In this document: positions 49,928 to 60,280 of the stretch, in pieces
Layout of the letters: every line of letters begins with the position of its first letter
Numbering within the stretch: position 1 is the stretch's first letter
NCBI GenBank assembly: GCA_964016885.1
Contig: OZ024742.1
Coordinates: forward strand, 240,312,001 to 240,376,000
Reading direction: 5' to 3'
Source: Eledone cirrhosa
Taxonomy: Eukaryota
Length of the DNA: 64,000 nucleotides
The notes under the pieces: model-generated
The model's input: only the letters and a program-made list of their open reading frames with translations
Databases searched by the model: none
Told to the model about the DNA's origin: nothing
Translations under genes and position numbers: made by a program

Positions 49928-49965
<38 letters not shown>

Positions 49966-50017
49966 TCATCATCATCATCACCTTCGTTTAACGTCCATTT
50001 TCCACGCTAGCATGGGT

Positions 50018-50057
<40 letters not shown>

Positions 50058-51570
50058 CACATGAAAAGGCTCTCAATCCACACTGTAAATGTGGTTAGCG
50101 TTAGGGAGGGCATCCAACTGTAAAACACTTGCCAGAGACGCTTCCGTGCAAGCGAGGCATGGTCCACCGACCACTCCCGCATCAAGTGGAACAAAACCGT
50201 CTAACCCATGCTAACGTGGAAGTGGACGTTAAACGAAGATGATGATGATACACATATATATGTATGTGTATATATATATATATGAAAACAGGGAGAAAGA
50301 GACGATTATTAGGAAGAAAAATATATTTTTTTCCTTTTTTGTTTCTCTCTCTTTTTTTCTGGGTTAGAAAATGATTAAAACGAAATGTTTTACTTTGTGT
50401 GAAGTGTTAAGGTATTAGTTGATTTATTTATTATTTAACAATGGCATTTATTTATCTATTTATATATTTAATAATTGTCTATTACCGGTTTCAGCATTTT
50501 TATGCATTATCAAATGATAGTGAAATGTATTAGTGTGGTGTCACACATGTTAAAGAGAAGGTGCAGAAAGAATAATGTTATTTACAAACAAGGTTTATGA
50601 AGTGAAAAGAAAAAAAAAAAAAAAACGGGCATGATGTAGAGCATAAAAAGTCAATGTGGAAGAAAAAATAATGTTATTTACAGGCATAGTTCTTGAAGTT
50701 AAGCAGATCAAAATGTGTTAATATAGCAAGAGTGCTTAGTTATTCCATGATGGAGGCAAATATACACACACATAGATACATGCATACATGTGTCAGCCAT
50801 GCATGCACTATATGTAAATGAGCATACCCAGCAAGTGATCATCATACAAAATTCTATATAGACTATAGTCTATTTTATGTCAGTACATTTTGTGTGTCAC
50901 TGATGAAAGATTAACAAATTTGAAACAGCATTGTCTTCTCGGAACATACTGGCAACTCTATGATATATACACAGAGGAAAATAGTGAAAAATAAAATATT
51001 TTTTGTTTTGTTACGAAAACATTTTTCATTGGCAGCGAAGCTACCCATATGATTTTTTGTATATAAACATATTATATATGTTTATATATGCTTTCATATA
51101 CAACAAAGTTAAACAAAATTAAAATCAACAATGAGTAGAGTGAAGAATTCAGTATACTGGTGGGGGCTCGCCAGATTTCCGTCCTTAGCCCCCTCCTCTT
51201 CATTTTTGTCCTACAGGCTATAACAGAGGAATTTAAGAATGGTTGCCCGTAGGAACTCCTATACATTGATGACCTGACTCCCTTAGTTGATTCTATGACA
51301 GAATTAGAGAAGAAATTTCAGACATGGAAGCACGACTTAAAAGTCCTTAAAGTCAAACTGGCAAAGACCAAAATCTTAGTGAGCAGAAAAGAAAACAGGG
51401 CTCTGATCCCCTCCGGGAAATATAAAAGGATCTTTTAAGATTGAAAATTCGAATAAAACCCTGTTTTGTCTTTTTATTATTTGCATTGTTGAGCTTTCAA
51501 ATCTAATCTAAATATTAAAAAAAAAAAAAATTTCTCATTTATTAATTTATCTGACCTGTTTGTTTTCCAG

Positions 51571-59010: not shown

Positions 59011-59127
59011 GAGGTTCTCCCAGGCCAGTCTAGTCTTCGTTGCCTGGCTGATAACACAGACGACAGCGATGAAGATCAGAGTGATTTAGAATTGTCATTT
59101 GGAAACAAAGATACATTTGTGTTAGAG
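59011..59127 (+). CDS. C2CD5: C2CD5 exon, EVLPGQSSLRCLADNTDDSDEDQSDLELSFGNKDTFVLE
   Basis: ttcag/gtaagt boundaries. LELSFGNKDTFVLE matches human LDLSHGKKDAFVLE. Confidence 0.92.
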
Positions 59128-59453
59128 GTAAGTAATGACTTGGGCTACTTTGGGAGCATTGTTAGTGGATATATATACCATATATATTCATGTCATCATC
59201 ATCATCGTTTATATCCATTTTTCCACACTAGTGTGGATTAGACCTGTTGTCCCGTAGTGAGACTAGCCAGATCAGATGACCGTGTCTTGCTCATACAGAA
59301 CTGATTTTGGCTGGATGCCTTTTCTAACGCCAACAACATTTACAGTGTGTATTGAGTGCTTTTAGTTGTGACACCTACAGGACCACTTTACAATGTGGAC
59401 TGGGCATGTTTTGTCGTGACGCCAACATGACCACTTTACAGTGTGGACTGGGT

Positions 59454-59572
59454 GCTTACGGCCATATCACGCTGAAAACACTGGTTTTCATCCGATCACC
59501 AAAGTTAAGCAACGTCGAGCCTAGTTAGTACTTAGATGGGTGAATGCTTAGGAAACATGGGTGCTGTAAGAA
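59454..59572 (+). pseudogene. Full-length 5S rRNA copy, probably a retroposed pseudogene
   Basis: GCTTACGGCCATATCACGCTGAAAACACTGGTTTTCATCCGATCACCAAAGTTAAGCAACGTCGAGCCTAGTTAGTACTTAGATGGGTGAATGCTTAGGAAACATGGGTGCTGTAAG, about 119 nt. Terminal stem CTTAC/GTAAG, box A-like AGTTAAGC, diverged box C. A single copy embedded in LINE tails. Confidence 0.92.
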
Positions 59573-60280
59573 TTTCCTTTTGCCTAACCCATGCTAGCGT
59601 GGAAGATAGACGTTAATTGATGATGATGATGATATATTCATGTATTTTTGGGGTTAAATTTATGAGGGTTGACTATTTTACATGGATACTATATTTGAAG
59701 GACTGAAATTCATATTCCACTCTAAAATACAGTATCAATAAGCAGAACTCTAAATGAATAAAAAGCAAAAACAATGGATTATAGTAATAATTGTTTCTAC
59801 ATTTGGCACAAGGCCAGCAATTCGATGGGAAAGTGAAAGTCGATTAAATCTATCCCAGTGCGTTACTGGTGCTTTATTTTATCAACCCCATTAAGATGAA
59901 AGGCAAAGCTAACCTCGACAGGATTTGAACTCAGAACGTAAAGGGTCATAACTCTGTTGCAAAGCATGTTGTCCGATGCTCTGCCGATTAGTGCAAATCC
60001 ACCGCCCTCATGGATTATAGTAATAGTACCAATGTTTCTATTCATTAATACATTTCCTCCTACCAAACATGATAAATGTTCCTGATAATGCCTTGATTCA
60101 CAGATGCTGGTCTGTTGTTAGTGCAGAATTGGGGTTGGCTTTTATGTGAGATACATAGAAAAATCCTAATTCTTTGGCAAAAAATAGGACTTTTACACAA
60201 GCTTATATAGTACACATTTATATTGTTATTGTTTAGCCCAGACCATCCCAGATTGAGCAGACCTGTGATCAAAGTCATTC

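What the first reader, a model, noticed from the sequence alone, without database searches (positions are those of the whole stretch)
59182..59643. 5S rRNA copy between two outward-facing RTE 3' tails, all inside one 12-bp target-site duplication
Seen in sequence: ATATATTCATGT at 59182-59193 and again at 59632-59643. Between them lie (i) about 260 nt of RTE 3'UTR on the minus strand, with its (GAT)n tail at the left TSD, (ii) a full-length 5S rRNA (59454-59572, plus strand), and (iii) a short T-rich linker and about 50 nt of the same RTE 3' end on the plus strand, with (GAT)n at the right TSD. The left junction shares GCTT microhomology (RTE ...GGGTGCTT[TT] and 5S GCTTACGG). Established: LINE RT makes small-RNA/LINE chimeras by template switching, and L1 twin priming gives inversions from a single RNA. 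Inference: both target nicks primed reverse transcription on LINE 3' tails, one cDNA carried or switched to 5S RNA, and the two cDNAs were joined by microhomology. That would be a two-template, double-tailed integration route.
Basis: partly seen in the sequence, partly recalled or inferred. Interest (0 to 1): 0.8.

Follow-up and report, generated by a model that had tools for sequence, protein, structure and literature searches.

The report
Two-tailed 5S rRNA–LINE chimeric insertion
A copy of 5S ribosomal RNA carrying a short retrotransposon tail sits head-to-head with a second retrotransposon fragment inside one 12-base direct repeat, likely because both DNA ends at the target primed reverse transcription in one event; this would be a rare invertebrate case of a route already proposed for mammalian L1, and the 5S-plus-tail half recurs at dozens of places in this genome.

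Summary
The structure is real. Both ATATATTCATGT copies abut (GAT)n tails, the 5S is near full length (Rfam 90 bits), and unrelated tail pairs give a comparably complex match in 2 of 25,877 cases. One correction: the genome's 5S genes start GTTT, so the inner microhomology is TT, not GCTT.

The right two-thirds (5S + native trailer + ~50-nt LINE tail) is a recurrent chimera: 23 of 92 5S loci read, with varied trailers and tail subfamilies. These look like independent captures, not one master SINE.

The double-tailed, TSD-flanked form is a singleton. Tails-out pairs are not enriched (104, against 160 tails-in and 162/114 same-direction). None of 90 read has a clean complex TSD; many are single-cDNA fold-backs or serial insertions in (AT)n.

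The halves are about the same age (~4-5% vs ~6% private changes), and ordinary insertions here lack long TSDs (0 of 196). That favours one two-nick event (~0.7: two RNAs ~0.5, one read-through RNA ~0.2) over sequential insertion (~0.25). No empty or one-tailed allele was found, so the order of events is untested. Two-RNA twin priming is already proposed for L1. Verdict: new variant of a known kind.

The parts
59182..59193 (+). Left copy of the 12-bp direct repeat (likely target-site duplication); its last T is shared with the adjacent tail
   Evidence: chance estimate
59194..59457 (-). 5'-truncated 3' UTR of an RT/PHD-encoding LINE (RTE-type by recall), with (GAT)4 tail at 59194-59205 pointing at the left repeat
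   Evidence: 40 other places scored, nearest 78-83%; related UTRs lie downstream of an RVT_1+PHD ORF; 9-13 private changes in 248 non-CpG sites
59456..59457 (.). TT shared by the LINE fragment and 5S nt 3-4: the inner head-to-head junction
   Evidence: gene-like 5S copies start GTTTACGG; other LINE copies continue past this point
59454..59572 (+). 5S rRNA retrocopy (Rfam span; 5S-derived from 59456), 6 non-CpG and 4 CpG changes
59573..59581 (+). Native 5S 3' trailer TTTCCTTTT; its T4 run would be a Pol III terminator (recalled)
   Evidence: same trailer follows gene-like 5S copies
59582..59633 (+). Minimal LINE 3' end (~36 nt, with the CCATG-CTAG-CRTGG hairpin) plus (GAT)5; last AT shared with the right repeat
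   Evidence: hairpin paired in 9 of 9 aligned chimeras, no two-sided covariation
59632..59643 (+). Right copy of the 12-bp direct repeat

Best explanation
The 438-bp insert is two LINE-made reverse transcripts joined head-to-head, likely made in one event in which nicks 12 bp apart on opposite strands each primed on a (GAU)n LINE tail. Inferred steps: (1) the bottom-strand nick at the ATAT primed the LINE's minimal 3' end; (2) after ~50 nt the RT continued onto the 3' trailer of a 5S precursor (template jump, or a pre-joined RNA) and copied it to nt 3; (3) the top-strand nick after CATGT primed a second tail and copied ~260 nt of 3' UTR; (4) the two cDNA ends paired over TT, and fill-in duplicated the 12 bp. 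I favour two separate RNAs (about 0.5 overall) over one read-through RNA with two tails (about 0.2, listed as a rival). Shown: the anatomy, the recurrence of the 5S-tail half, equal divergence of the halves. Inferred: the nicks, the priming and the simultaneity. It is most likely a dead pseudogene in an intron with no function.
For: Both tails abut one repeat that is unlikely by chance. No (AT)n or host DNA lies between the halves, whereas 43 of 90 other tails-out pairs carry a microsatellite spacer. Ordinary insertions here have no long TSD: 0 of 196 with a defined 5' end had a complex repeat >=8 nt and the length distribution equals shuffled controls; among 228 tails only this locus gave a clean 12-mer. 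A first ordinary insertion with a 12-bp TSD, which sequential models need, is therefore rare. Private non-CpG changes are 9-13 of 248 (left) and 8-9 of 138 (right), Fisher p 0.3-0.65. Both outer junctions resemble ordinary tail junctions: ATAT follows 79 of 228 tails and GACA 13 of 228. The arms differ, which excludes fold-back. Two-RNA twin priming is proposed for inverted snRNA/L1, 5S/L1 and tRNA/L1 chimeras; L1 bridges with two poly(A) tails occur in tumours.
Against: No second example: 0 of 90 tails-out loci had a clean, non-palindromic complex TSD (8 flagged, shuffled mean 6.85; 7 of the 8 have inverted flanks). Tails-out pairs are not enriched (104 vs 160 vs 162/114). Tails pile up at ATAT sites and usually insert without TSD, so a later blunt insertion at the ATAT of an older TSD gives the same sequence. 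About 10 of 90 pairs are direct joins of unlike arms without TSD (read by eye), so serial direct joins do occur. Microhomology is only 2 nt. The age test is weak. No empty or one-tailed allele was seen.
Confidence: 0.5

Rival explanations
1. Two sequential insertions. One element inserted first with a 12-bp TSD; the other later inserted blunt at the junction between its 5' end and one TSD copy (most simply, the 5S chimera at the ATAT of the right copy).
For: ATAT is the commonest sequence after tails (79 of 228); no-TSD insertion is the norm; tails cluster in all orientations; 5S chimeras often land beside an older tail (L003, L045, L047, L093, L107, L315); the halves differ in subfamily.
Against: Needs a first insertion with a long complex TSD (0 of 196), then an exact hit on the first base of the regenerated repeat with no spacer and no new duplication, within the same age window.
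Confidence: 0.25
2. Classical twin priming on one read-through RNA from a tandem source [LINE-(GAT)n-(AT)n-5S-tail-(GAT)n]. The first nick primes at the last tail and copies to 5S nt 3; the second nick primes at the internal (GAU)n and copies the LINE 3' UTR inverted.
For: Such tandems exist: long LINE copies directly followed by same-sense 5S chimeras in L047/L314, L315, L045, L093. It explains why the forward arm ends next to the second priming site, as in L1 twin priming (PMC10191854, bioRxiv 10.1101/2024.08.27.596794).
Against: No source found: best other 5S-tail copy 89%, best other left fragment 83%; same-sense LINE pieces upstream of the 92 5S loci match the left half at only 66-75% over the longer alignments. 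The top-strand end pairs with (GAU)n by only 1 nt. The 5S 5' end also explains the stop under the two-RNA model.
Confidence: 0.2
3. A pre-formed composite moved as one RNA and was truncated inside the inverted (CAT)n run, or the 12-mer match is chance, or the assembly is wrong.
For: Truncation in a microsatellite needs little homology; no listed contig spans the inner LINE/5S junction.
Against: No second copy of the composite; chance about 1e-4 per pair; a same-species contig bridges the left junction with 0 differences, and short contigs of a second species fit both outer junctions.
Confidence: 0.05

Closest known systems
Inverted small-RNA/L1 chimeras explained by two-RNA twin priming (PMC4476161; bioRxiv 10.1101/2025.02.02.635956; passages read)
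   Same: Two different RNAs in opposite orientation inside one TSD; 5' ends joined in the middle; the 5S start lies at the junction.
   Different: There the second RNA is a bare, 3'-truncated small RNA primed internally. Here both arms end in a LINE tail, the 5S is near full length with its own tail, and the LINE is a non-L1 element in a mollusc-like genome.
U6/L2 and U6/RTE template-switch chimeras of stringent LINEs (PMC4476161)
   Same: Small RNA upstream of a short LINE 3' piece in the same sense, many independent copies, short or no TSD. This fits the right two-thirds and its 22 sister loci.
   Different: The RNA is 5S with variable precursor trailers, mostly 5'-complete, and the join falls at a near-fixed point 4-9 nt before the tail hairpin; 5S is also joined to other tails and to SINE 5' ends.
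SINE3 families with RTE tails (CoeSINE5, HaSE3; PMC5786205, PMC7245038; Ped-1 head recalled)
   Same: 5S head plus RTE-type 3' end.
   Different: SINE families are uniform among copies; these are not (23 different linkers, several 5S types and tail subfamilies), and this copy keeps a T4 run before the tail.
Two-poly(A) L1 bridges from synchronous insertions in tumours (bioRxiv 10.1101/2024.08.27.596794)
   Same: Two 5'-truncated cDNAs joined at their 5' breakpoints, a tail at each end.
   Different: Those come from two distant target sites (heteroduplications, rearrangements); here one site is duplicated and the insertion is in the germline.
5' foldback inversion at L1 insertions (PMC10191854)
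   Same: Likely explains many other tails-out pairs in this genome (matching arms, inverted flanks).
   Different: Does not fit this locus: unlike arms, direct flanks.

Membership tests
Two-RNA twin-priming chimera | Two segments in opposite orientation inside one TSD | tested here: met
Two-RNA twin-priming chimera | 5' ends joined directly, with microhomology and no target DNA | tested here: met
   TT only
Two-RNA twin-priming chimera | Both segments of the same age | tested here: inconclusive
   compatible, p 0.3-0.65, low power
Two-RNA twin-priming chimera | Single event: empty ortholog, no one-armed allele | tested here: inconclusive
   second species appears to carry both junctions; no empty allele seen
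Two-RNA twin-priming chimera | Segments come from separate RNAs | tested here: inconclusive
   no tandem source found, but such tandems exist for other copies
Classical cis twin priming (L1 5' inversion) | Inverted segment lies upstream of the forward segment on one RNA | tested here: inconclusive
   not true of a plain LINE RNA (second tail, 5S between); possible only for a read-through tandem, none found
SINE3 (5S-headed SINE family) | 5S-derived head | tested here: met
SINE3 (5S-headed SINE family) | Uniform structure among copies from a master element | tested here: not met
   23 different linkers; GCC/GCT 5S types and TTTCC/TTTAC/TTTAA trailers combine with several tail subfamilies; a few short-lived masters cannot be excluded
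SINE3 (5S-headed SINE family) | Pol III read-through transcript including the tail | not tested
   no RNA run laid; a T4 run precedes the tail in this copy
Small-RNA/LINE template-switch chimera (right half) | Small RNA to its 3' end, then a 5'-truncated LINE end in the same sense with tail, arising repeatedly | tested here: met
Small-RNA/LINE template-switch chimera (right half) | Junction made during reverse transcription rather than by RNA ligation | not testable with these tools
   needs junction-spanning RNA or an in vitro assay; joins to the very 5' start of SINEs (22 of 92) favour an RT jump by inference
RTE clade LINE (parent) | RT-encoding ORF upstream of this 3' UTR and microsatellite tail | tested here: met
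   RVT_1 (E 8e-7, just under the curated cut-off on a partial domain) and PHD; Atlas neighbours with mollusc records
RTE clade LINE (parent) | Placement in the RTE clade on an RT tree | not tested
Fold-back (single-cDNA) inversion | Arms identical at birth, flanks inverted | tested here: not met
   arms 73% alike, flanks direct

The most novel reading that the evidence does not exclude
In this mollusc-like genome two LINE ribonucleoproteins can nick opposite strands a turn apart and each prime its own tail, giving a germline insert with a tail at both ends and a long TSD that this LINE otherwise never leaves. The 5S half comes from a standing process in which the RT runs off short RNAs consisting only of the LINE's 3' recognition hairpin (three different LINE tails, each cut at a near-fixed point) and jumps onto 5S precursors, so the genome holds dozens of independent, unamplified SINE3 births.
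Probability: 0.4. Interest if true: 0.6.

Novelty: new variant of a known kind. Interest (0 to 1): 0.42.

Why it matters
If concerted, it extends two-RNA twin priming from L1 to a tail-dependent invertebrate LINE and shows that both ends of one staggered break can be primed on LINE tails in the germline. As one old insertion it has no likely function and cannot establish a route alone. The wider set is more useful. SINEs are thought to gain LINE tails by template switching, usually inferred from finished families. Here dozens of independent 5S-tail joins at near-fixed positions make that step countable and testable, including whether the donor is a protected ~50-nt tail fragment and whether the joint is made by RT or by an RNA ligase.

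Tried and rejected
One-off template switch at this locus: rejected, the 5S-tail unit recurs. Single master SINE3: rejected on linker and subfamily diversity. 12-mer as part of the LINE: rejected, 228 tails are followed by varied sequence and only this locus has it. GCTT microhomology: reduced to TT. Double-tailing as a common dedicated route: not supported. Fold-back for this locus: rejected. Left half much older: raw 25 of 248 fell to 9-13 once variants shared with other copies were set aside. More inverted-tail-plus-5S composites: the exact pattern gave 3 loci, this one and two with long host or microsatellite spacers; L002, found earlier, has a 15-nt inverted arm sharing a variant with its own tail and (AT)n flanks, likely fold-back. 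Empty allele: not found; one other species had only a small word share (0.18) and its contigs reach under 31 nt past each junction, so they are hints, not bridges; two RAD runs gave nothing usable (4 reads of X6 join other sequence at a TTAA site, likely library chimeras). Folding the two decayed tails singly gave z about -0.2 (its third sequence was irrelevant flank). The neighbouring 39-codon exon-like frame had no Pfam match. Two look-ups in earlier findings returned nothing. A paper search for fold-back in non-LTR elements returned 0.

Full report
Observation. The 12-mer ATATATTCATGT lies at 59182-59193 and 59632-59643 and nowhere else in the window. Between them are a minus-strand LINE 3' UTR whose (CAT)4 abuts the left copy, a 5S rRNA (Rfam 90 bits), the trailer TTTCCTTTT, ~36 nt of LINE 3' end and (GAT)5 abutting the right copy. 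Gene-like 5S copies start GTTTACGG, so the inner junction shares TT and the 5S begins at nt 3. The two tails are 73% complementary and carry different variants. Pairing 228 tails in silico, 2 of 25,877 unrelated pairs give a >=10-nt repeat with six or more distinct dinucleotides, both microsatellite-like; 1,688 pairs match if plain (AT)n is allowed. The insert lies 54 nt downstream of an exon-like frame with AG/GT ends, so it is probably intronic (no Pfam match). The genome is 3.0 Gb. The parent LINE has an RVT_1 plus PHD frame with mollusc neighbours. 'RTE' and 'octopod' are recalled labels; no tree was built.

The right half is a recurrent product. A search with 59454-59631 scored 40 of 1,873 candidates, many covering 5S and tail together. 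An exact 5S-end pattern gave 108 matches, 100 listed; by eye 9 carry the ~50-nt tail and 5 a longer piece of the same UTR. Of 106 loci given to the script, 2 gave no 5S hit and duplicates were dropped, leaving 92: 23 with this short tail, 22 joined to the very start of tRNA-headed SINEs, 19 with a second ~50-nt tail ending in AAAGAG repeats, 5 with longer UTR, 3 with a third tail, 7 running into (AT)n, 3 gene-like, 10 other. The first 30 loci were ranked with the tail in the query, so 23 of 92 is inflated. All 23 linkers differ; 5S types and trailers of variable length combine with several tail subfamilies; only 6 loci match an exact 5S-to-tail pattern. The join falls about 4-9 nt before a hairpin paired in 9 of 9 aligned copies, without two-sided covariation, whereas ordinary copies are truncated anywhere from 20 to 700 nt. 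These look like independent captures of 5S precursors, as described for U6 with L2 in platypus (PMC4476161, passages), not a uniform SINE3 (PMC5786205, PMC7245038, passages).

Is double-tailing a route? With exact 16-mers within 5-400 nt there are 104 tails-out pairs, 160 tails-in and 162/114 same-direction: no enrichment, because tails crowd into (AT)n. I read 90 distinct tails-out loci drawn from three patterns (104, 129 and 52 matches, at most 50 listed each). Of these 43 have a microsatellite spacer and 47 are directly joined; 27 have inverted flanks by the script's rule. Eight were flagged for a complex direct repeat against a shuffled mean of 6.85, and 7 of the 8 are palindromic with inverted flanks. 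None resembles this locus. Many short direct joins have arms sharing private variants, and a 46-nt core recurs in 7 loci, two with about 60 nt of inverted flank: likely fold-back of one cDNA, akin to L1 foldback inversion (PMC10191854, passage). Pairs inside (AT)n cannot show a TSD, so this screen is partly blind. Among 5S chimeras only this locus and L002 have an inverted tail joined to the 5S start; L002 looks like fold-back.

One event or two. In 1.26 Mb, 11 of 228 tails had a complex >=9-nt repeat upstream (controls 1-5): two are this locus, most others are palindromic loci that I had selected. Of 196 insertions with a defined 5' end none had a complex repeat >=8 nt and lengths matched shuffled controls. 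So this LINE normally leaves no long TSD, unlike Bov-B (PMC13295347, passages). This cuts both ways: a later blunt insertion at an ATAT is normal, but a first ordinary insertion with a 12-bp TSD is not, while two nicks each next to a tail give it directly. The left half differs from the commonest letters of its 29 nearest copies at 25 of 248 non-CpG sites, 9-13 of them private; the right half at 11 of 138, 8-9 private (p 0.3-0.65). The ages are compatible, with low power. Seven runs were listed. A same-species contig bridges the left junction with no difference and another covers the right one by 24 nt; these may be the assembly's source. A second species, about 5% diverged in the flank, has a contig running 18 nt into the left tail and an 83-nt contig identical over 59612-59645. 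Both fall short of the 31-nt bridging rule, and its flank beyond 59645 is not covered. They hint that both junctions predate that split. No empty or one-tailed allele appeared, and no listed piece spans the inner junction.

Mechanism. Best reading (0.5): nicks 12 bp apart on opposite strands each primed a tailed RNA; one cDNA was the common tail-to-5S chimera, the other ~260 nt of UTR; they paired over TT. Rival (0.2): one read-through RNA from a LINE followed by a same-sense 5S chimera, primed at both tails. Such tandems exist (L045, L047, L093, L315) but no source for this insert was found. Rival (0.25): sequential insertion. Remainder 0.05. These odds are my judgement from the counts above.

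Known work and novelty. Two-RNA twin priming is proposed for inverted U5, U1, U2, 5S and tRNA chimeras with L1 (PMC4476161; bioRxiv 10.1101/2025.02.02.635956; passages). Two-poly(A) L1 bridges occur in tumours, from two target sites (bioRxiv 10.1101/2024.08.27.596794, passages). Nine searches of the held library listed no paper whose title, abstract start or passages read describe a double-tailed RTE insert in one TSD or cephalopod 5S-LINE chimeras; most listed papers were seen only as listings, subscription journals are largely missing and bioRxiv supplements were closed. Verdict: real, singleton, a new variant of a known kind; interest 0.42, much of it from the recurrent 5S captures.

Noticed in passing
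G000, loci L002-L066 and L082-L121: Most dispersed 5S copies read are chimeras: 5S plus variable native trailer joined at a near-fixed point to one of three LINE-like tails, or to the very 5' start of tRNA-headed SINEs. Looks like repeated independent proto-SINE3 formation.
   Followed up: partly
L076, L141, L256, L266, L274, L276, L277 and other 39-110 nt cores: Recurrent miniature head-to-head tail palindromes joined at the tail hairpin; several have long inverted flanks, suggesting cDNA fold-back that copies the tail and target.
   Followed up: partly
L068, L073, L074, L075, L079, L124, L125, L241 and further matches: A multi-copy element of about 215-430 nt core with long inverted repeats that contain the LINE tail and extend into shared microsatellite flanks; foldback/MITE-like, ends and mobiliser not defined.
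   Followed up: no
rows on C16, C18-C20, C22, C26, C27 and C4:92.9 Mb; L026: Gene-like 5S copies with shared downstream flanks, on C20 spaced about 100-200 kb apart (likely part of a larger repeat unit), a tandem cluster on C4, and an inverted arrangement in L026.
   Followed up: no
L047:2099-3094 (-), L093, L109, L045: The LINE's RT frame carries a PHD finger just after the RT core.
   Followed up: partly
L047/L314, L315, L045, L093: Long LINE copies directly followed by a same-sense 5S chimera after a short (AT)n: possible read-through templates.
   Followed up: partly
window 49965-50249: Another tails-out pair (minus tail 49973-50019, plus tail 50201-50247) with microsatellite after the minus-strand piece; probably serial insertions.
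   Followed up: no
window 59011-59127: Exon-like open frame of 39 codons, acidic, with AG/GT ends, conserved in the second species; host gene not identified.
   Followed up: partly
window 59785-60010: An older SINE-like repeat on the minus strand, flanked by a 16-nt direct repeat at 59774-59789 and 60010-60025; that family, unlike the (GAT)n LINE, may leave long TSDs.
   Followed up: no
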